Shown here piece by piece: positions 1,606-63,408 of a DNA stretch of 64,000 nucleotides (within the stretch, counting starts at the first letter, position 1; the number at the start of each line of letters is the position of its first letter). The notes under the pieces are model-generated. The model did no database searches and had not been told where the DNA came from. It was given only the letters and a program-made list of their open reading frames with translations. The translations under genes and the position numbers were made by a program. Source of the DNA: a virus; the IMG/VR virus record IMGVR_UViG_3300037704_000085, positions 26,834 to 90,833 of that record; one strand, given 5' to 3'.

Positions 1606-3204
1606 ATGGCAAAAGATCAACAATCAGCGGGCTTGTGGCAGAAAGCCAAGGCATGGCTCGCCGGTAACGACAAGGCCGGAGAAATCAGGGAATTGGACGC
1701 TGGTTTCGAAGGCGTGTCCGTGTCCATGCTGCTGGGCAGCGGCAAGCGCTCCTCTAGGTCCCGCGCGTTCCTGTACGAGAACTACCACTACATGGCCGGC
1801 GACGGGATTATCTCGTCGGCGATCCGCCTGCACGTCACGCAAGCGCTGGGCGGGCACGAAACGACCGGCGACGTGGTGTTCATCGAGCCGGTGGCCGAGG
1901 ATGCGACCGGCGAGCCGAAACGCATTGTCGAAGAGCTTCAAAGAGACCTTGGCCCGCTGTTCAACCGCGTGGCCTACCCGACCGCCTTCAATGGTGCGAC
2001 CTTCGGAGACGCCTACGCGCGCATTTATGCCAAGGACAAATTCGGCGTGGTCGATCTGTGTTGCGACGAAATGGTCTATCCGCCACTGGTGCAACCATTC
2101 GAACAAGGCAACCGCACGGTCGGCTACACCATCAGCACCGGCACCAAATTCACCGAGAAGCTGAGCGTCAAGCAGATGGCGCGCATGAAGATGCCGCGCA
2201 TGCTTTACGTCGCGCAAAACCGTGTGATCGAAAAGTCGATGCGCATCGCCATTCAAGAGGATGACATCGACAAGTTGCCGATCCTGCCGGCGCTGGTCGG
2301 TGGTTCCTTCCTTGATGCGGCCGAAGAGTCTTATTACAACCTGATTTCCGCCCTGACCGGACTGGTCGGCCAGCGCGTGTTGAACTCCATTGACGAATCG
2401 ATGATCGGCGTCAACATGGAGTCGATGACGGTCGAGCAGCGCAAGGAGTTCATGGGCTCGCTGAAGGCCATGCTGACCAACAGCAAGGCCCGCGCCGAAA
2501 AGGCCGTCAAGGACGGCAAGCCGGTCCTTGAGCGCCTGTATCACATCATGCCGACGTTCAACGAAAAGCAGATGACGCGGATCGAAGGCTTCCAAGGCGG
2601 GTCCGGCGGCGCGAACATTAGCATTGACGACGTGATGCTGCACGCCAAGATGCTGGCCGGCGCGCTGGGTATCGACCTGTCAATGCTGGGCTTCTCCGAC
2701 ATCCTCTCCGGCGGCTTGGGTGATGGCGGTTTCTTCCGCGTGTCGGCGCAAGCGGCCGAGCGCAGCCGGATCATCCGCAACGCGCTCTCCAAGTTCTTTG
2801 ATGACGTGATCGACATTCACACGTTGAACAAATACGGATTCGTGTTCGCCGATGGCGAGCGGCCGTACAAGGTTAATTTCTACGGCTCGATTTCGGCACT
2901 CGAAACCGAGAAGCAGCACACCAAAGAAACGGCGACGAACACCGCCATGGCGCTGGTCACGGTGCTGACGCAACTGCGCGACTTGGGTATGAAGCCGGAA
3001 GCGAACGAGCATATTTTTTCGAAAGTCATGCAGATGGACAAGGACGCCGCCAAGCTGCTGGCCGAAGGGATCAAGAACGCCAAGCCGCCGGGCAACGAGG
3101 ACGGCATGGGCGGCTTCGGCGGCGGCGCACCGGGGCAACCCGGCGGCATTCCGCCGTTAGAAGACACGGGCGACGAACCGCCCGACAATCGCGTACTGCA
3201 ATAA
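1606..3204 (+). CDS. prt: portal protein (P1 Prt-like)
   Basis: about 530 aa, first gene of the head operon, precedes the protease; FGDAYARIY and LAGALGIDLSMLG portal-like segments, Gly/Pro-rich tail. Confidence 0.8.
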   Translation: MAKDQQSAGLWQKAKAWLAGNDKAGEIRELDAGFEGVSVSMLLGSGKRSSRSRAFLYENYHYMAGDGIISSAIRLHVTQALGGHETTGDVVFIEPVAEDATGEPKRIVEELQRDLGPLFNRVAYPTAFNGATFGDAYARIYAKDKFGVVDLCCDEMVYPPLVQPFEQGNRTVGYTISTGTKFTEKLSVKQMARMKMPRMLYVAQNRVIEKSMRIAIQEDDIDKLPILPALVGGSFLDAAEESYYNLISALTGLVGQRVLNSIDESMIGVNMESMTVEQRKEFMGSLKAMLTNSKARAEKAVKDGKPVLERLYHIMPTFNEKQMTRIEGFQGGSGGANISIDDVMLHAKMLAGALGIDLSMLGFSDILSGGLGDGGFFRVSAQAAERSRIIRNALSKFFDDVIDIHTLNKYGFVFADGERPYKVNFYGSISALETEKQHTKETATNTAMALVTVLTQLRDLGMKPEANEHIFSKVMQMDKDAAKLLAEGIKNAKPPGNEDGMGGFGGGAPGQPGGIPPLEDTGDEPPDNRVLQ

Positions 3205-3213
3205 GGATTGACG

Positions 3214-4089
3214 ATGGCAACCACGACCAAACGCATTAGCTTCAACGTCACGAACCGCCACCGGAAGTTTCGCGGCCAGAACCGCAACTTCGACACGGCC
3301 GCGCTCGCGGCGCTGATCAACGGCGGCGAGACACAGGAAAAGGTCAAGCACCGCGACATGCTGGGCTACTTCGGTCACTGGCCGCGCGTGCGCTTCGGCA
3401 TGAACCCCGGCGAGGGCGCGATTCTCGACGGCAAGCACGTTTCGATTGAGCCGGCGATTGTGACGACGCACCTGAAGGCGTTGCCGGATGGCACCATCGA
3501 ACACGAAACCGAGTTTCTCGATACCGCGTCCGGCCGGCTGGCTGAGCGCCTGTACCTGTCGAATGCCGGCGGCTTCAGTTCGGCCATCGACACCCGCAAG
3601 TGCGGCGACAAGCAGGTGCCGTTGGGCTTCTACGGCTTCGACTACGTGTTGGAGCCGAACTTCACCAAGAATCGCGGCTATGACGTGGCGCTCGACGGCG
3701 TTCAGGACGAGGCGATGCTAATGATGCTGGACGACGTGGCCGAGTATCGCGGCATGTTCGACGCCATCAACGGCCTGTACGACTCGCTGCAAGGGGCCTA
3801 CGACCTGCAAAGCGCGGCGATGCAGCGCGTGGTCGAAGAAAACGAAACCCTCATGTCGATGCTCGCCAAGCAGGGGCGCTCGCCGCATGCGCTGGCGCTC
3901 GACGGGATCGAGGCCGAAGCCTTCGGCGGCGGCGAAAGCCGCGTGCTGCGCGTATCGGATCGGTTCATGGCGACCGACATCAAGGACTTGCCGGGGTTTC
4001 AGGCGCTCGATTCGGTGGCCGAGGAAGAGCGCAAGGCCGAAGAAAAGGCCAAGCCGACTGACAACCTGCTGCACCGCATGTTTCGCTAA
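3214..4089 (+). CDS. pro: prohead maturation protease (P1 Pro / T4 gp21-like)
   Basis: candidate catalytic motifs LGYFGH, GGFSSA and FDYVLEPNF; follows portal. Confidence 0.8.
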   Translation: MATTTKRISFNVTNRHRKFRGQNRNFDTAALAALINGGETQEKVKHRDMLGYFGHWPRVRFGMNPGEGAILDGKHVSIEPAIVTTHLKALPDGTIEHETEFLDTASGRLAERLYLSNAGGFSSAIDTRKCGDKQVPLGFYGFDYVLEPNFTKNRGYDVALDGVQDEAMLMMLDDVAEYRGMFDAINGLYDSLQGAYDLQSAAMQRVVEENETLMSMLAKQGRSPHALALDGIEAEAFGGGESRVLRVSDRFMATDIKDLPGFQALDSVAEEERKAEEKAKPTDNLLHRMFR

Positions 4090-28140: not shown

Positions 28141-29613
28141 ATGCTGATCACGCACCTGAATTTTGCGGCAAACCTCAAGCAGTCGGCCAATCCGCGCGGC
28201 GGCGCAGTTGATGGCAATATCCATTTCAACCAGACGACCGGAGAAGTGGAGTTCATCACGGTCGATCAACTGGCGACGGTGGATTTCGGCGCTGGCCCGG
28301 TAGCCAACCCGCTGACGGCGGCGGATGGCATCACCATGCGCGCCCTCTACAACTTCGAAAACCAAGAACGCGCGGTCGATAACACGCTGGCCGGGTTCAA
28401 GCGTTTCACCAGCGGCGACTATCGTTTTGCCGGGGCCTACTCGTTCGTCAATGGCAACAAGCCGGCGGCGGCGGACCGGGGTAAGATTCGCAATTCCGGG
28501 TGGATCGAATACGACGCGGCGGTCGATGGCGAAACGACGGTCAATCGCATCTATCACGGCGTCAAGTCGCTGAACCCGATTCAGGCCACAACGACGCCAT
28601 ATTGGACGCTGGTCACTGCGACCGACGAAACGACGCTGCAAGCGGCGGCATGGGCTGACTTCGGACGGCCGGGGCCGGTTGACGAGGCGGTTCAGGTGTT
28701 CGGCGCGGCCGGGCATGGCGACTTCGACTACACCGCGCGCGTTCTGGCGGTTCGCGTGCGCTCATGGGGCTACAACGCCGGGGAAACCACGTCGGTTTTG
28801 ACCGGGATCGCGGAGTTTTCCGGCTTCTCGGCCGGCTACGGTATCGGCGAGTCGCTGAACAGCAACAACTCCTATGCGCTGGCCGATGTTTATGGCGGCG
28901 CGGCGGTCGCACCGTGGACCGGCATGACACTTGAAATGCTGGCTGTGCCGCAGACCGAAACCGGCTTCAACGAGGCGGACGGCGATTTCACATGGGTTTT
29001 GCACAACGCGGCTGTCGGCACGGTGCAGCAATGCGCCGCTTATCTCGATGCGGTGATGTTGCAGGACGCCGACATTGACGTTGGCACGGGGGTTTACAAC
29101 GGAAAGAAAGGCCGGGTCTGGTACTCCCGCGATACGACCGGCCGGGTGGTGACCAGTCGCGGCCTGTTCATCGAAGGTCTGTCAACGGCAGAGAAACAGA
29201 ACGCCGTGATGACGGCCGACGACAACTCGGCGAAGACATCCCCCTTCTTCCCCGAGATTCGGCTGAATGCCGGCGCGGTTGCCGTGTCCGATCCGGCGGC
29301 ATGGTATCGCCTGATCTATGTCGATGGGGCGGGCGGGGCCGACTACGACACGGCAACCGCCGTGACCGTCAACAACGCGGCGGGCACCCCGATTTATGGC
29401 AACGTCGCGGCTGACGTGGTGGGAACAATCATCTTCAACGACTACGACTACGACGGCAACACGCAAGCCGGCTTGGCGGCGGGGGTCGATAAGAACGTGG
29501 TGGCACTGGTGGAGGGGAATGGCATCGCCGCGCAAGCCATCGCCTACTTCACGATCACGCGAACGCCGATTATTACGGTGACCTGCGCGCCCGGCACCGA
29601 TACGAACGCCTAA
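28141..29613 (+). CDS. putative structural protein
   Basis: long ORF with phage-typical codon usage, beta-rich. Confidence 0.65.
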   Translation: MLITHLNFAANLKQSANPRGGAVDGNIHFNQTTGEVEFITVDQLATVDFGAGPVANPLTAADGITMRALYNFENQERAVDNTLAGFKRFTSGDYRFAGAYSFVNGNKPAAADRGKIRNSGWIEYDAAVDGETTVNRIYHGVKSLNPIQATTTPYWTLVTATDETTLQAAAWADFGRPGPVDEAVQVFGAAGHGDFDYTARVLAVRVRSWGYNAGETTSVLTGIAEFSGFSAGYGIGESLNSNNSYALADVYGGAAVAPWTGMTLEMLAVPQTETGFNEADGDFTWVLHNAAVGTVQQCAAYLDAVMLQDADIDVGTGVYNGKKGRVWYSRDTTGRVVTSRGLFIEGLSTAEKQNAVMTADDNSAKTSPFFPEIRLNAGAVAVSDPAAWYRLIYVDGAGGADYDTATAVTVNNAAGTPIYGNVAADVVGTIIFNDYDYDGNTQAGLAAGVDKNVVALVEGNGIAAQAIAYFTITRTPIITVTCAPGTDTNA

Positions 29614-39466: not shown

Positions 39467-39874
39467 ATGGCACGCCAAGGCAAAAAAGTAGCAAGCCTTG
39501 GCGCTCCTTCCGCCAACGAGGGGAGCGCCAAGGCTGCGGCCAACAGCGCTCCCGTCGTCGTTGTGGAGAGCGCCAATTCGCCGCCCGTGATCGAGGACAA
39601 GATTGCGCCTGTGGCCGAAATTCAGGCCGTGGTCGAAATCGCCGCGACTGCGCCGACCTATCCCTGCGAGCGTGTGGTGAAAAACAACACGCCCTCCGAC
39701 CTGATGCTGCCGTCTGTCGGCGTGCTGGTTCGGGCGTACTGCGAGAGCCCTGTGGTCTTCCTCAGCAAAGAGCAGATGAAGCGCTTTGAGAACGACGCGC
39801 GCCAACTGTGCGAGTTGAACGGCTGGCAAGACGGCATCGTAATTGAACCCAGCGACGAAGCCGTCGCCAAGTAA
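39467..39874 (+). CDS. hypothetical head-associated protein
   Basis: AAGGAG SD; lies between capsid and sheath. Confidence 0.65.
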   Translation: MARQGKKVASLGAPSANEGSAKAAANSAPVVVVESANSPPVIEDKIAPVAEIQAVVEIAATAPTYPCERVVKNNTPSDLMLPSVGVLVRAYCESPVVFLSKEQMKRFENDARQLCELNGWQDGIVIEPSDEAVAK

Positions 39875-60367: not shown

Positions 60368-60807
60368 TGGCGCTGCGCCGGACCGGCTTCAAGAATCGCG
60401 GCACCGGGCTCAAGCGGTCCGGCGACGGCCTGAAGCGCGGCGGGCCGATCAAGGCCAATGGACCAACGAAATCGAAGCGGCGTTCGAACGCCCTGCACGG
60501 GCGGGCGGCGGCGGTGGCGTACATGGGCGCGGTGGCGGCGACGGGCTGCGCGCTGTGTCGGCATCTGGGGTTGGGCGCGACGCCGGGGCAAGTGCATCAC
60601 CAGCGAACAGGAATCGGGGCTGGGCAGAGGGCGACGGACTTTCAAACCGTCTGCCTCTGCGACCTGCACCATGAAGGGAAAGACGGCATCCACGGCATGG
60701 GCCGCAAGGCGTGGGAAGCAAAGCACGGAATCACCGAGCTTCAACTAATCGAACAAACCCGGCATGAACTGGCCGAACAAGGAGTGGTGTATGGCGATAT
60801 TGCTTGA
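60367..60807 (+). CDS. Ref-like recombination enhancement HNH nuclease
   Basis: basic N-terminus, GCALC, QVHH, CLCDLHH, GIH, WEAKHG.TE. Confidence 0.75.
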   Translation: MALRRTGFKNRGTGLKRSGDGLKRGGPIKANGPTKSKRRSNALHGRAAAVAYMGAVAATGCALCRHLGLGATPGQVHHQRTGIGAGQRATDFQTVCLCDLHHEGKDGIHGMGRKAWEAKHGITELQLIEQTRHELAEQGVVYGDIA

Positions 60808-61423
60808 CAAGGAAGGCACGCAGGCGCTGGCGAAGCTGATCGGCAAGCGCATGCGGGCGGCGCGGATGGCGGCGAACATCGGCGAGGAAGAGGCGGGGAA
60901 AATCATCGGCCACAAGGGCGCGACCCAAATCTGCCTCTGCGAGTCGGGCGAACGCATCCTGCCGGTCCTGTCGCTGGTCAAGCTGGCCGATAAGTACGGC
61001 GTGTCGATGGATTACGCGCTGGGGCGGATAGACGACCCGCTGGCTGATCCGTTCGAGACCAATCAGGGCGCGATTGCGCGCACGGTTGCCAACGGCGTGG
61101 AAAGCTGCTTTCGGCAGTTTTCGGCAAGCGTCGCGACCTACACCGTGGCGAGCTTGGAAGAGCGCCGCAAGGACATGCACGACATCCGGCGGATCACCGA
61201 GCGGGCGCAAGAGGTCAAGGACGCTTTGGAGCGGTTCGCGAGCCTCAATCCAGAGTTCGAAGAAGACATGCGCGGCGGCGCGCGGCTGGTCGCATCGATT
61301 GGAAGTCTCAACGCCTTGACGACCGAGGCGGCGACTAGAATTGAGGCTGAGAAAAAGGCGCGGAAAATTCGCCAATTCGAGGCGTCAATCGAGGTCGAAC
61401 ATTTTTGCTTGACGCCCCGCTGA
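60791..61423 (+). CDS. XRE-family HTH regulator with C-terminal coiled region
   Basis: IGKRMRAAR...ESGER...LADKYGVSMDYALG. Confidence 0.8.
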   Translation: MAILLDKEGTQALAKLIGKRMRAARMAANIGEEEAGKIIGHKGATQICLCESGERILPVLSLVKLADKYGVSMDYALGRIDDPLADPFETNQGAIARTVANGVESCFRQFSASVATYTVASLEERRKDMHDIRRITERAQEVKDALERFASLNPEFEEDMRGGARLVASIGSLNALTTEAATRIEAEKKARKIRQFEASIEVEHFCLTPR

Positions 61424-61428
61424 AAAAG

Positions 61429-61457
61429 TTGCTTTGCTAAAGATAGTCCGGTATCAT
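61429..61457 (+). promoter_or_regulatory. sigma70 promoter driving the RNA cluster
   Basis: TTGCTT-N17-TATCAT. Confidence 0.65.
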
Positions 61458-61697
61458 TTGCGGTGTTGTAAGTCAGTAGCTTTGCATCATCAGGAAAGCA
61501 CCTGTGCCCATCCTGACGCCTAGCAAACAGGCGGCTTTCGGGGTCAATCGAAAGCAACTCCCACCGGCGCGTGTCCGGGCGGTTTGTCACCGATAAGGCC
61601 GTTCCTGCGGACCGTCAAAAGCGGCCCGGAGTCGAGTGAAATAACTCGGCAGTTTTCACCGTCGCCATGGGGTGAGAATGGCATAAGGAAACAGTGG

Positions 61698-61774
61698 GGC
61701 GGGTTAGCTCAGTTTGGTAGAGCGCGGGACTCATAATCCCGAGGTCGATTGTTCAAGTCAATCACCCGCATCCA
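61698..61774 (+). tRNA. tRNA with CAT anticodon (Ile2/Met type), encoded CCA
   Basis: full cloverleaf; anticodon arm CGGGA-CTCATAA-TCCCG; T arm GATTG-TTCAAGT-CAATC. Confidence 0.9.
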
Positions 61775-61815
61775 CAAGCAAGGCGCTTGTCTCAGGCCCC
61801 TTTCTTGTGGTGGCA

Positions 61816-61883
61816 GTGTTAGACACACGGCTGGCGGATACAGGAAACGCCGGTAGTTCCGGGTGAGAGTCCCGGCCAACACG
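61816..61883 (+). ncRNA. D-arm-less tRNA-like element
   Basis: 7-bp acceptor-like stem with one mismatch, 5-bp T stem with 7-nt loop, one internal arm. Confidence 0.45.
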
Positions 61884-62282
61884 CTGTACGCTCTTGGGAG
61901 AGAGGTTCGACACGCGCGGAAGCCGCCGAAATGACGGTGAAAGCGTGGGGCGGGTGAAGTTAGACCGCCGCGTTGGGAAAGGCTACCCGGTCTGTCCCTG
62001 ATGCGAAGTGCGGCCGGGGGCTTCTGGCGGCTACATGCACCAGACGGGCGCAGCGGACGTTATGCGTTGCCGGTGTGTAAAGAAACACCGCCGTTGCAAT
62101 CGGGAGACCGAGAGGCAACTCCGCACACGGCAAGCGGATGCAGGGCGGGCGGCGGCTGGAATCTCCTTTGGGGATGCCTGTGCTACGGGGACAGTCGCCG
62201 CCATGTTCTGTTGCAATACGGGAGACGGCTCGCCTCGTCATGGGTGGAGGCAAAACATCGCCGCTGAGTCGTCTGCCGTATT

Positions 62283-62363
62283 GCGGGGTTAGCTCAGGGA
62301 GAGCGTCCGGTTCCTAACCGGAAGGAGTGCCGATAGGCCGTGGTTCGAGTCCACAACACCGCT
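62283..62363 (+). tRNA. atypical tRNA-Arg(CCT) with long variable arm
   Basis: GCTC/GAGC D stem, TCCGG-TTCCTAA-CCGGA anticodon arm, GGTTCGAGTCC T arm; mismatches in acceptor and T stems. Confidence 0.7.
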
Positions 62364-63048
62364 TCAGAATTGCGCAGCACTTCGGCCACAAGCCGATAGA
62401 GGCAAGACCATGGGAGTAGGACTGCATAGGCCCGTGGCGTGCCGGTGGAACACCGGGGGCCGTGACGACAAGATACCGGCCGGTCCTGCCTTCGGGCAGG
62501 GCCAACACAAAGGCGGCAGCGGGGATTGACCCGCCTAAGCGCAAGGCTGGAGCAGCAGGCGGCGAAGGGAAAACAACGGCACCAGTAGGTTAGATCGCAT
62601 CAAACCGAAGCCCGGACCCCTGAAGCACCGTAGCTGACGCGGAGTACCAGAGCCGGGTAACCGGCCCGCCTTTGTGTTGGTGATCGTGGCTCTACCATGC
62701 GGCATTGCCGCGACGCCGTAAGGCGCTGTGACGACAGGCCCAACCCCAACCCCGCGCCGGGTAAGAGCGCGGGAAGCTCGATTGCTGGTGGCCTAGCTTT
62801 GGGAACCAGACGCTGACCAAAGCGCGAGAGGTGACGAGCCGAGAAAGAGCGGCGCTGTTGGTGTAGGCCAGTATTGCCAACATACCGGACCTGTGGGGGA
62901 AATCGGTGCGATACCAGCAGAGGCGCGTATCTGCGGCAGGAAACGGCGCTGGCAGGGCGGAACAGTACGCCCAAGGATTCGCAGGGTGCAACACTGAAAC
63001 GCAAAACCCTGATCAACGCCCGCGAGGGCAACGACAGGAGAAGTAACC

Positions 63049-63408
63049 ATGAAGTTCAGGATGACGAAGGAGTGGTTGGAGCGGAAGCTGAAGGAAATGG
63101 CTGACGCCGGGGTGGATGAAGCGACGTGCGAGGCCGGCGGCGGGCTGACGGTGATCGAAGCGCCGCACGTGGTCGCCAAGTTCCGCTGCAACAGCGTGGA
63201 TACATCAAAGTGGGGGAAGAATCAGCAGTACCACAAGGTCAATCTCGGCGCGATCTACGGCACCGAAGGCGAGAACGCCGACTTCGCGAAGGCAACGCCG
63301 TCCGGGGCCGCGTGGATGCAGATTGACGACGGGGTGCGGGCTCATGAGTTCTTCGAACCACAGGAAGACTACTACCTGAAGTTCTTCAAGGCACCGAAAA
63401 AGCAGTAA
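63049..63408 (+). CDS. hypothetical phage protein
   Basis: AGGAG SD; AKFRC...ENADFAKATPSG...YYLKF. Confidence 0.8.
   Translation: MKFRMTKEWLERKLKEMADAGVDEATCEAGGGLTVIEAPHVVAKFRCNSVDTSKWGKNQQYHKVNLGAIYGTEGENADFAKATPSGAAWMQIDDGVRAHEFFEPQEDYYLKFFKAPKKQ

What the first reader, a model, noticed from the sequence alone, without database searches (positions are those of the whole stretch)
61429..63035. About 1.6 kb promoter-driven array of structured non-coding RNAs interleaved with atypical tRNAs
Seen: a TTGCTT-N17-TATCAT promoter is followed by about 1.6 kb without a credible ORF, in a genome that is otherwise wall-to-wall genes. Nearly the whole stretch folds into adjacent hairpins on the + strand. 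Many have stable RNA tetraloops (TCGG-GAGA-CCGA, GTCCTGCC-TTCG-GGCAGGGC, GCCGG-GTAA-CCGGC, CGCC-GTAA-GGCG, GCCC-GCGA-GGGC) and G-U wobble pairs, which favours selection on RNA structure. It contains two odd tRNAs, a tRNA mimic and several multibranch domains. Known: phage tRNA clusters can neighbour large ncRNAs such as GOLLD and ROOL, and phage tRNAs can counter anticodon-nuclease defences. Inference: this is a polycistronic phage RNA operon, either one large RNA or a set of processed RNAs acting as decoys, sponges or anti-defence factors. It is my best candidate for an undescribed system.
Basis: partly seen in the sequence, partly recalled or inferred. Interest (0 to 1): 0.85.

Follow-up and report, generated by a model that had tools for sequence, protein, structure and literature searches.

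The report
Orphan structured tRNA-bearing phage leader
A 1.6-kb stretch of an uncultured 91-kb phage really is non-coding, carries two real but unusual tRNA genes and shows a strand-specific signature of folded RNA. It has no relatives anywhere, so it is best read as the processed leader of the phage's late (packaging) operon, not as a proven new RNA system.

Summary
Window 61424-63048 is confirmed as non-coding. It is the longest stretch without codon periodicity in the 90.8-kb phage record.

It holds two real + strand tRNAs, CAU at 61698-61774 and Arg-CCU at 62283-62363, both with odd features. No other Rfam family matches, even at E<=10.

The non-tRNA segments fold better than shuffles on the + strand (z -1.7, -2.3, -1.9). 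Two domains stand out, at z -5.2 and -3.3. GNRA/UUCG tetraloop hairpins are enriched on the + strand only (5 against 0.8 expected). A 15-bp perfect long-range complement is the longest in the genome.

The "tRNA mimic", the G-U argument and the promoter are not supported or are weak.

The stretch is an orphan: no DNA homologue was found in any collection searched, so covariation cannot be tested.

It sits between an HTH regulator and small genes followed by terminase, at the head of the late operon. Distant relatives keep a 0.5-3.6-kb mostly non-coding slot there. That slot holds sparse tRNAs, the same + strand tetraloop bias (18 against 5.9 expected) and a conserved, covarying ~160-nt RNA motif unknown to Rfam. 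The motif is absent from this window.

Earlier notes of this scan describe unannotated leader RNAs beside phage tRNA-Arg on other DNA; none shares sequence with this one.

Verdict: a real, transcribed and structured tRNA leader. Its function is inferred. The decoy or anti-defence reading has no evidence.

The parts
60764..61423 (+). HTH-type regulator gene (219 aa) that ends just before the stretch. It is the anchor used to find syntenic loci.
   Evidence: Coding periodicity. PHROG 7396 and a phrog_8 transcriptional regulator match. Homologues carry HTH_3/HTH_31.
61429..61457 (+). Promoter-like TTGCTT-N17-TATCAT. Weak and unverified.
   Evidence: 8 of 12 consensus positions. Not reported by the sigma-70 scan. 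No conserved counterpart in relatives.
61490..61555 (+). Three abutting small hairpins at the start of the leader.
   Evidence: MFE and partition function, pair probabilities 0.61-0.86. Segment 61460-61697 has z -1.69.
61698..61774 (+). tRNA with anticodon CAU (Met or Ile2 type). It has a G1-A72 mismatch and an encoded CCA.
   Evidence: ARAGORN. Rfam tRNA 59.8 bits. Cloverleaf. Comparison with CAU tRNAs of relatives.
61772..61810 (+). Imperfect 16-bp hairpin that starts at the 3' end of the tRNA.
   Evidence: Inverted repeat I2. Pair probabilities 0.95-0.99.
61830..61854 (+). 7-bp hairpin with an 11-nt loop.
   Evidence: Pair probability 0.99. No tRNA hit.
62093..62119 (+). Hairpin with an inner GAGA tetraloop stem.
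62136..62290 (+). Twin Y-shaped domains (62140-62211 and 62212-62285). Each has a stem of about 19 bp topped by two small hairpins. The second abuts the first base of tRNA-Arg. Candidate RNase III-type processing or stabiliser elements.
   Evidence: strand folding z -5.16, 0 of 200 shuffles as stable. Pair probabilities 0.95-1.0. Inverted repeat I1.
62283..62363 (+). tRNA-Arg(CCU) with a ~16-nt variable arm (GCC-GAUA-GGC hairpin), a 5-nt D loop, and G5-A68 and C49-A65 mismatches.
   Evidence: ARAGORN. Rfam 48.5 bits with an insertion in the variable region. Drawing.
62361..62553 (+). Multibranch domain after tRNA-Arg, including a 9-bp UUCG hairpin at 62482-62503.
   Evidence: Pair probabilities 0.93-1.0. 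Tetraloop list.
62498..62684 (+). Domain of about 187 nt, closed by the 15-bp perfect complement 62502-62516/62666-62680 (18 bp with extensions). It encloses a GUAA hairpin at 62652-62665. It competes with other pairings of 62667-62684.
   Evidence: Longest perfect inverted repeat in the genome, 0 of 400 shuffles. z -3.26. Alternative pairing in the global fold.
62700..63006 (+). Distal part of the leader, with a GUAA hairpin (62714-62725), a 7-bp hairpin (62751-62773) and several long-range helices. These are predicted only.
   Evidence: Segment 62364-63048 has z -1.92.
63007..63051 (+). 5'-UTR hairpin of the 119-aa gene. A CCUG/CAGG stem with a GCGA tetraloop arm overlaps the Shine-Dalgarno sequence and ends at the ATG.
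   Evidence: Sub-threshold match to Rfam Mu-gpT-DE (18.1 bits, E 0.5, gathering score 49), aligned to the start codon. Tetraloop.
63049..63408 (+). First gene after the leader (119 aa, unknown function). A 100-aa gene follows. After the contig break come the terminase small and large subunit genes.
   Evidence: Periodicity. PHROG hits. Homologues are short proteins of unrelated low-GC phages.

Best explanation
The stretch is the transcribed, untranslated leader of the phage's late (packaging/structural) operon. It has served as a landing place for two tRNA genes.

Proposed mechanism (inferred):
- RNA polymerase comes from the co-oriented early/nin genes, from a weak regulator-dependent promoter at 61429-61457, or from both. 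It makes one long + strand RNA.
- RNase P and 3' trimming release the CAU and Arg-CCU tRNAs, which read codons that are rare in a high-GC host.
- The long stems of about 19 bp just upstream of tRNA-Arg, the domain closed by the 15-18-bp stem, and the many GNRA/UUCG-capped hairpins act as processing sites (RNase III/E type).
- They also act as exonuclease-resistant ends that set the half-lives of the tRNA precursors and of the downstream mRNA.
- The last hairpin gates the ribosome-binding site of the first late-side gene.

Shown: the non-coding nature, the tRNAs, the + strand structural signature and the genomic position. Inferred: transcription, the processing enzymes and the stabilising role.
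For: - Non-coding: no codon periodicity and the longest such stretch in the genome. No protein-family match and no credible small ORF.
- Two bona fide + strand tRNAs.
- + strand RNA signature: GNRA/UNCG-capped hairpins, 5 against 0.8 expected, 1 on the - strand. Segment z-scores are -1.7 to -2.3 on +, weaker on -, and about 0 to +1.3 in coding controls. Domain z-scores are -5.16 and -3.26. The 15-bp perfect long-range complement is unmatched in 400 shuffles.
- Position: O-like, DnaC-like, RusA-like, NinB and HTH regulator genes lie upstream on the same strand. Small genes follow, then TerS and TerL at the start of the record.
- In relatives L009 and L011 the same slot is followed directly by TerS.
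- No convincing intrinsic terminator lies inside the stretch, so read-through into the downstream genes is expected.
- The slot is conserved as a kind. Of the 11 viral loci found through the regulator (two pairs are near-duplicates), most have 0.5-3.6 kb of mostly non-coding sequence after it.
- Tetraloop hairpins in the slots are again biased to the + strand: 18 against 5.9 expected (p 5e-5), and 18/111 against 2/99 on -.
- In L006 and L008 a tRNA starts about 22 nt after the regulator's stop codon. This implies co-transcription with upstream genes.
Against: - No RNA data exist. The only sequencing run holding the stretch is the DNA sample it probably came from.
- No homologue of the non-tRNA sequence was found, so no helix has covariation support.
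- Energy z-scores of the strongest domains are similar on both strands, and G-U pairs are not enriched. Strand assignment therefore rests on the tRNAs, the tetraloops and the segment-level z-scores.
- 1.3 kb is long for a mere processing spacer.
- The RNase III/E roles are inferred from stem geometry only.
Confidence: 0.45

Rival explanations
1. One or more of the discrete domains are autonomous functional RNAs of undescribed classes, carried as cargo beside the tRNAs. They might be riboregulators, protein-binding or decoy RNAs, or parts of a larger ornate RNA. Candidates are the twin Y-shaped domain 62136-62290, the 187-nt domain 62498-62684 and the multibranch domain 62361-62553.
For: - Domain z-scores of -5.16 and -3.26 exceed what simple spacers need.
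- Tetraloop enrichment.
- In relatives the same slot carries a truly conserved RNA motif of about 160 nt, with compensatory changes in several helices and no Rfam match. It occurs in at least 12 phage contigs, usually next to a tRNA. Such cargo RNAs therefore exist in this slot.
- Known precedent, from my own knowledge: GOLLD and ROOL lie next to phage tRNAs, and T4 co-transcribes stable RNAs with its tRNA cluster.
Against: - No homologue, hence no covariation for any domain of this window.
- The conserved motif of the relatives is absent here (best E 0.35).
- No associated protein gene.
- No Rfam match even at E<=10.
- Nothing points to defence or counter-defence.
Confidence: 0.25
2. The non-tRNA sequence is decaying filler. 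It would be remnants of former tRNAs, morons and RNA modules in a recombination hot spot, with structure left over or incidental and no present function.
For: - The content of the slot turns over completely between relatives, from 0.1 to 3.6 kb. Blocks are shared in a mosaic and nothing is shared with this window except tRNA.
- L006 holds a sub-threshold tRNA relic (27.3 bits).
- The stretch is an orphan in every collection searched.
- Short internal repeats look like duplication debris, for example the tRNA-Met leader motif repeated at 61939.
Against: - + strand-specific tetraloop enrichment and negative z-scores in all three non-tRNA segments are not expected of drifted sequence.
- A perfect 15-bp complement would decay quickly.
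- Phage genomes are packed: this is the only long non-coding stretch in 90.8 kb.
Confidence: 0.15
3. The promoter-proximal hairpins form a cis-acting processive antitermination RNA of the HK022 put kind. It would let RNA polymerase read through the structured leader into the late genes.
For: - Abutting hairpins lie directly after the promoter-like site, at the head of a long operon.
- Earlier notes of this scan propose put-like leaders before phage tRNA-Arg in other phages. This is a lead only.
Against: - No convincing terminator needs overriding.
- The promoter is weak and not conserved.
- No model or annotated put sequence was available for comparison; the HK022 record lacks the feature.
Confidence: 0.07
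4. The inverted repeats act at the DNA level, as a packaging (cos/pac) site, a plasmid-partition site, an origin or a recombination site.
For: - The stretch lies about 2 kb upstream of the terminase genes.
- Relatives carry an HU/IHF-like gene in the slot.
- Energy z-scores of the main stems are strand-symmetric.
Against: - Three small genes separate the stretch from TerS.
- There are no iterons, tandem repeats or AT-rich tract.
- Tetraloop identity is strand-specific, which DNA sites do not require.
- The repeat arms are 34-149 nt apart, unlike operator palindromes.
Confidence: 0.05
5. The stretch encodes several very small proteins.
For: A 39-codon ATG ORF with a GAGG upstream lies at 62410-62529.
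Against: Flat GC1/2/3 throughout. No family match. The peptides look like random high-GC translations.
Confidence: 0.03

Closest known systems
tRNA cluster in the late-operon leader of lambdoid Shiga-toxin phages (ileZ-argN-argO between Q/pR' and the late genes of 933W; my own knowledge)
   Same: CAU-anticodon and rare-codon Arg tRNAs sit just after the late regulator, ahead of late genes, on the same strand, within a moron-rich leader. The genome layout is lambdoid.
   Different: The regulator here is an HTH_3-type protein, not Q. No pR'/tR' pair is recognisable. The tRNAs are about 500 nt apart and embedded in 1.3 kb of structured non-coding RNA. There is no sequence similarity.
Phage T4 tRNA cluster with co-transcribed stable RNAs (species 1 and 2, rnaC/rnaD; my own knowledge)
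   Same: tRNAs and other folded, non-coding RNAs are made from one precursor and released by host RNases.
   Different: T4's tRNAs are tightly packed and the extra RNAs are about 120-140 nt. Here the non-tRNA part is ten times larger and its products are unknown.
GOLLD and ROOL large ornate RNAs (Rfam; structures in bioRxiv 10.1101/2024.12.08.627333)
   Same: Large structured RNAs of phages and prophages, often adjacent to tRNA genes and rich in stable tetraloops.
   Different: No match to either model, even at E<=10. No evidence here for a single large RNA or for multimer formation.
RNase III processing hairpins of phage polycistronic RNAs (T7 R sites, lambda sib; my own knowledge)
   Same: Stems of about 19-20 bp with internal irregularities sit between functional units of one transcript. 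Stable 3' hairpins are left on the products.
   Different: Cleavage is not shown. The stems here branch into Y shapes. They flank a tRNA, not mRNAs.
Conserved ~160-nt tRNA-adjacent RNA motif of related phages
   Same: Same genomic slot (after the regulator, before TerS) in L003, L011 and L033. Same strand as the tRNAs, GNRA-capped helices, not in Rfam.
   Different: Absent from this window. Unlike this window's stretch, it is conserved in at least 12 contigs and has covariation support.
Theta (HDV-like) ribozymes next to phage tRNAs (PMC10879173)
   Same: Structured RNA elements abutting phage tRNA ends, thought to shape tRNA maturation.
   Different: No HDV-family Rfam hit. My loose double-pseudoknot descriptor was no more frequent than in shuffles. 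The first base after each tRNA does not start a recognisable P1.
Rfam Mu-gpT-DE motif (for 63007-63051 only)
   Same: The flanking sequence and a hairpin that overlaps the Shine-Dalgarno sequence align to the model, ending at the start codon.
   Different: 18.1 bits against a gathering score of 49. The inner 28 nt of the model are replaced.

Membership tests
tRNA (Rfam RF00005) | Cloverleaf scoring above the gathering score of 29 bits, with an anticodon loop. | tested here: met
   61698-61774 scores 59.8 bits and 62283-62363 scores 48.5 bits. ARAGORN agrees.
tRNA-like element ('tRNA mimic' 61816-61883) | Any detectable similarity to the tRNA model or an ARAGORN call at relaxed thresholds. | tested here: not met
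   No further tRNA hit at E<=10. ARAGORN at 80% thresholds gives only spurious tmRNA calls.
GOLLD / ROOL / other large Rfam RNAs (OLE, HEARO, raiA, group I and II introns, RNase P, tmRNA) | Covariance-model match at or near the gathering score. | tested here: not met
   cmscan of 61300-63200 against 4227 families at E<=10 gave only the two tRNAs and chance-level hits.
HDV-like / theta ribozyme | Nested double pseudoknot (P1, P1.1, P2, P3, P4) with a catalytic C in J4/2, starting at a tRNA 3' end. | tested here: inconclusive
   My own loose descriptor gave 492 hits against 153-397 in shuffles, so it is uninformative. No Rfam HDV-family hit. The published RNArobo descriptor was not available.
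Module C RNA motif of related phages (model R1) | Significant match to the covariance model built from 10 sequences. | tested here: not met
   Best window hit E 0.35 with filters off. The true members score E 1e-30 to 1e-35.
HK022 put-type antiterminator RNA | Two stem-loops just after a promoter that act in cis on RNA polymerase to suppress downstream terminators. | not testable with these tools
   Hairpins exist at 61490-61555. No put model or annotated put sequence was at hand and no terminators are evident.
RNase III substrate | About two turns (about 20 bp) of near-continuous double-stranded RNA. | tested here: met
   Stems 62140-62158/62192-62211 (19 bp, one bulge) and 62212-62231/62266-62285 (19 bp), with pair probability >=0.95. 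Only the geometry is met; cleavage is not testable here.
Intrinsic terminator / attenuator array | GC-rich hairpin directly followed by a U run. | tested here: not met
   Only two weak + strand candidates (61785, 62654), no more than in shuffles. None of the five tetraloop hairpins is followed by a U tract.
Sigma-70 promoter | Good -35/-10 hexamers with 16-18-nt spacing, conserved in relatives. | tested here: inconclusive
   TTGCTT-17-TATCAT matches 8 of 12 positions. It is below the scan's threshold and has no conserved counterpart.
Rfam Mu-gpT-DE (63007-63051) | Score at or above the gathering score of 49 bits. | tested here: not met
   18.1 bits, E 0.5.

The most novel reading that the evidence does not exclude
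This phage group, whose known relative sits in a Pseudomonas MAG, uses the head of its late operon as a depot for fast-evolving, tRNA-linked structured RNAs. The discrete domains of this window would be autonomous functional RNAs of undescribed classes. These are the twin Y-shaped domain 62136-62290 and the 187-nt domain closed by the 15-18-bp stem. The conserved module C of the relatives would be a sister example.
Probability: 0.25. Interest if true: 0.65.

Novelty: new variant of a known kind. Interest (0 to 1): 0.45.

Why it matters
Phage tRNA genes are usually annotated as isolated add-ons. Here, and in a set of distantly related 80-95-kb phages, they lie in a kilobase-scale non-coding slot at the head of the late operon. 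That slot carries a statistically clear, strand-specific signature of selected RNA hairpins. In relatives it also carries a conserved, covarying RNA motif that no database names.

If the non-tRNA parts prove functional, they would add a new layer of RNA cargo to temperate phages. Possible roles are RNA processing and stability control, antitermination, or something else. They would also add new families for RNA databases.

If they are only processing spacers, the case is still a useful example of how phages embed tRNAs in mRNA leaders. As it stands, the window's own sequence is a singleton and cannot yet be tested by comparison.

Tried and rejected
HOMOLOGUE SEARCHES FOR THE 1.6 KB (only tRNA-Met or chance matches)
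- blastn against 50,697 phage records and 72,556 plasmids.
- Three exact or degenerate pattern scans of IMG/VR: the tRNA-Arg variable arm gave 0 hits; the repeated 21-mer gave 2 chance hits; the repeated GTTGCAAT..CGGGAGAC motif gave 1 chance hit in coding DNA.
- 401 genomes of the order of the Pseudomonas MAG that holds relative L029: one 40-nt chance match.
- Earlier-findings look-ups by sequence.

FLANKING PROTEINS
- The regulator has no relative above 46% identity among 5.8 billion proteins.
- The homologues of the 119-aa protein lie in unrelated low-GC phages without tRNAs.
The contigs of the closest regulator homologues (P0002, P0003, P0005, P0006) therefore could not be fetched.

SEQUENCING RUNS
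- No RNA holder is listed. The single DNA run is probably the source sample, and its contigs show no variants.

CHECKS THAT LED NOWHERE
- The first 'conserved non-coding block' among relatives turned out to be an HU-like gene.
- Module C model against the window, P1 and HK022: no match.
- blastn of module C against cultured phages: no match.
- HDV-like descriptor: non-specific.
- G-U against A-C asymmetry: none.
- Tandem duplication of about 300 nt between 61800 and 62400: not significant.
- The HK022 record carries no put annotation to compare with.
- Complex prediction, structure prediction and the protein atlas were not relevant and were not used.
Full report
WHAT THE WINDOW IS

The window is the last 64 kb of a 90,833-base IMG/VR phage record. 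The record is classed as linear and estimated complete. It has 60.8% G+C. The only sequencing run that holds the stretch is a sediment metagenome, which is probably its source.

The genes around the finding are laid out in lambdoid fashion on the + strand:
- a repressor-like gene (56352)
- an O-like replication initiator (57215)
- a DnaC-like loader (58078)
- a RusA-like resolvase (59063)
- NinB (59547)
- two unknown genes
- an HTH-type regulator (60764-61423)

The finding comes next. It is followed by small genes of 119 and 100 aa. After the contig break come terminase small (record 75-1163) and large (1980-3548) subunit genes. Elsewhere the phage has a P1 DarB-like giant methylase-helicase.

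CHECK OF THE OBSERVATION: NON-CODING NATURE AND tRNAs

The stretch from 61424 to 63048 is non-coding by every test I could run.
- Codon-position GC periodicity is 0.3-0.46 in the flanking genes. It collapses to <=0.16 from about 61240 to 62960.
- This is the longest such stretch in the whole record.
- The longest ORFs in it have flat GC1/GC2/GC3 and no Pfam match at E<=1.
- No small ORF preceded by a Shine-Dalgarno sequence has coding-like composition.

ARAGORN and Rfam agree on two + strand tRNAs.
- A CAU tRNA lies at 61698-61774 (59.8 bits). It has a G1-A72 mismatch and an elongator/Ile2-type anticodon arm.
- An Arg-CCU tRNA lies at 62283-62363 (48.5 bits). It has a 5-nt D loop, two stem mismatches and a ~16-nt variable arm with a small hairpin.
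- These are the only tRNAs of the phage.

A permissive Rfam scan at E<=10 finds nothing else beyond chance-level hits. There is no GOLLD, ROOL, intron, ribozyme or riboswitch. The proposed tRNA mimic at 61816-61883 has no support from the tRNA model or from ARAGORN at lowered thresholds.

IS THERE MORE STRUCTURE THAN CHANCE GIVES?

Yes, moderately overall and strongly in places.
- Local 150-nt windows have a mean z of -1.03 inside the stretch, against -0.20 in the flanks (p 2e-4).
- Taken as whole segments without the tRNAs, the three parts give z -1.69, -2.25 and -1.92 on the + strand.
- The - strand gives -1.19, -0.16 and -1.22. Four coding controls give -0.59 to +1.35.
- The 155 nt just upstream of tRNA-Arg fold into two Y-shaped domains, each with a stem of about 19 bp. 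Their z is -5.16.
Their z is -3.26.
- That complement is the longest perfect inverted repeat within 400 nt in the entire genome. It is never reached in 400 dinucleotide shuffles.

The best strand-specific evidence is the identity of the tetraloops.
- Hairpins of at least 4 bp capped by GNRA or UNCG number 5 on the + strand. The genome-wide rate predicts 0.8 (Poisson p 0.0014).
- Only 0.35% of other windows of equal size reach 5.
- The - strand has one.

- G-U positions do not outnumber A-C positions in candidate helices (107 against 107).
- The promoter matches only 8 of 12 consensus positions and is not conserved.

RELATIVES

The stretch itself is an orphan. Apart from tRNA-Met similarity, it has no match in any of the following:
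- phage and plasmid records
- IMG/VR pattern scans
- 401 genomes of the order of the Pseudomonas MAG that holds relative L029
- other sequencing runs

Covariation, the decisive computational test, therefore cannot be applied.

The regulator gene did lead to distant relatives. Its homologues are at most 46% identical. It gave 11 viral loci, one locus on a Pseudomonas MAG contig identical to L008, and a few metagenome fragments.

Most of these relatives have the same kind of slot. After the regulator come 0.5-3.6 kb with little or no codon periodicity.
- L006 has four tRNAs spread over 3.4 kb.
- L008 has two tRNAs.
- L004, L031 and L033 have a CAU tRNA.
- An HU-like gene is often present; my first 'conserved block' was this gene.
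- In L009 and L011 the terminase small subunit gene follows.
- In L006 and L008 a tRNA begins about 22 nt after the regulator's stop codon, so it must be co-transcribed with upstream genes.

The tetraloop bias recurs in the pooled slots of seven relatives. There are 18 on the + strand against 5.9 expected (p 5e-5), and 18 of 111 tetraloop hairpins on + against 2 of 99 on - (Fisher p 3e-4). The RNA signature is thus a property of the slot in this phage group, not an accident of one sequence.

A CONSERVED RNA IN THE RELATIVES' SLOT

L003, L011 and L033 share a block of about 160 nt.
- A pattern scan found it in nine more IMG/VR contigs.
- It has a nearly invariant 58-nt core and compensatory changes in several helices; 13 of 34 predicted pairs show double changes.
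- By eye it has a 3' pseudoknot with an A-rich linker.
- It lies 8-10 nt upstream of a tRNA in five contigs and directly after tRNA-Met in L033.
- It has no Rfam match at E<=1 and no blastn match in cultured phages.
- A covariance model built from it (R1) finds its members at E 1e-30 to 1e-35. It finds nothing in this window (best E 0.35), in P1 or in HK022.

This shows that structured RNA cargo does live in this slot. It also shows that the window carries something else.

MOST LIKELY MECHANISM

Given the position, the co-orientation, the lack of internal terminators and the tRNAs, I read the stretch as the untranslated leader of the late/packaging operon. It would be transcribed as one + strand RNA.
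- The tRNAs would be excised by RNase P and 3' trimming.
- The long stems match the geometry of an RNase III substrate. They and the many tetraloop-capped hairpins would serve as cleavage sites and as protective ends. These would set the stability of the tRNA precursors and of the downstream message.
- The final hairpin (63007-63051) overlaps the ribosome-binding site of the first downstream gene. It aligns, below threshold, to the Mu-gpT-DE 5'-UTR motif.

This is inference from anatomy, and I give it 0.45. Decaying filler in a recombination hot spot gets 0.15. Put-like antitermination, DNA-level sites and small proteins share the rest.

COMPARISON WITH WHAT IS KNOWN

The nearest analogues are these:
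- the tRNA cluster in the late leader of lambdoid Shiga-toxin phages
- the T4 tRNA cluster with its co-transcribed stable RNAs
- RNase III hairpins of phage polycistronic RNAs
- GOLLD and ROOL, which also neighbour phage tRNAs

Membership in any described RNA family other than tRNA was tested and not met.

Earlier notes of this scan report unannotated structured leader RNAs next to tRNA-Arg in enterobacterial and T1-like phages. They are a parallel, not a match, because no sequence look-alike exists.

VERDICT

The stretch is non-coding, bears tRNAs and is structured on the + strand. The strong interpretation, a new RNA system of decoys or anti-defence factors, has no evidence. The sequence is a singleton that cannot be tested by comparison. 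I rate it a new variant of a known kind: a phage tRNA operon or leader with unusually long structured RNA. Interest is moderate. The conserved module C of the relatives is the more tractable lead for a new RNA family.

Noticed in passing
L011:7350-7512, L003:2016-2163, L033:2826-2979; also L035-L038, L040, L041, L043-L045 (alignments A7, A8; model R1): A conserved structured RNA motif of about 160 nt ('module C'). It has a nearly invariant 58-nt core, compensatory changes in several helices and an apparent 3' pseudoknot with an A-rich linker. It usually lies 8-10 nt upstream of a tRNA, or directly after one. It has no Rfam 15 match and no blastn match in cultured phages. It is a candidate new phage RNA family.
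   Followed up: partly
L006:7686-7882 and L008:8107-8302: A second non-coding block is shared at 82% identity between two relatives. It begins with a GGC-GAAA-GCC hairpin motif that also occurs in L011. With only two full copies, covariation could not be judged.
   Followed up: no
window 62283-62363: The CCU tRNA has a class-II-like variable arm of about 16 nt with a 3-bp hairpin, a minimal D loop and a U73 discriminator. Bacterial tRNA-Arg is normally class I, so its charging identity is uncertain and worth an aminoacylation test.
   Followed up: partly
window 63007-63051: A 5'-UTR hairpin overlapping the Shine-Dalgarno sequence of the 119-aa gene aligns end to end with Rfam Mu-gpT-DE, including the start codon. 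It scores only 18.1 bits (gathering score 49). It may be a divergent member or a chance match.
   Followed up: no
L006:6784-7056, L008:6795-7070, L009:708-1010, L011:6719-6991; also L003:2824-3198: Relatives carry an HU/IHF-like DNA-binding protein gene (PHROG 379) in the slot, or in L003 just after it, a short way upstream of the terminase genes. This window's phage has none there.
   Followed up: partly
L006:7305-7377: A sub-threshold tRNA-like sequence (27.3 bits, gathering score 29) lies between two real tRNAs. It is probably a decaying or unusual tRNA and shows turnover in the slot.
   Followed up: no
window 61415-61440; L006:6655-6680; L008:6655-6675; L009:700-720; L011:6682-6702: Just after the regulator's stop codon several relatives have a short GCAA..TTGC-type inverted or repeated motif, and the window has GTTGC-TTTGC. 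It may be the regulator's binding site. It overlaps the -35 of the proposed promoter in the window.
   Followed up: no
L008 / L029: The IMG/VR relative L008 is identical over 4.5 kb to a 94.9-kb contig of a Pseudomonas sp. MAG (NZ_DASVUM010000243.1). This suggests Pseudomonas as host for at least that relative, possibly as an extrachromosomal or unintegrated element.
   Followed up: no
window 39494-39535 and 29275-29360: These are the next-longest perfect inverted repeats of the genome (14 bp each), outside the finding. They were not examined and may be terminators between late genes.
   Followed up: no
G000 record ends (window 64000 / record position 1): The record has no terminal repeat, and the terminase small subunit gene starts 75 nt after its first base, while open frames run off its last base. 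The break may be an assembly end or lie near a physical genome end.
   Followed up: no
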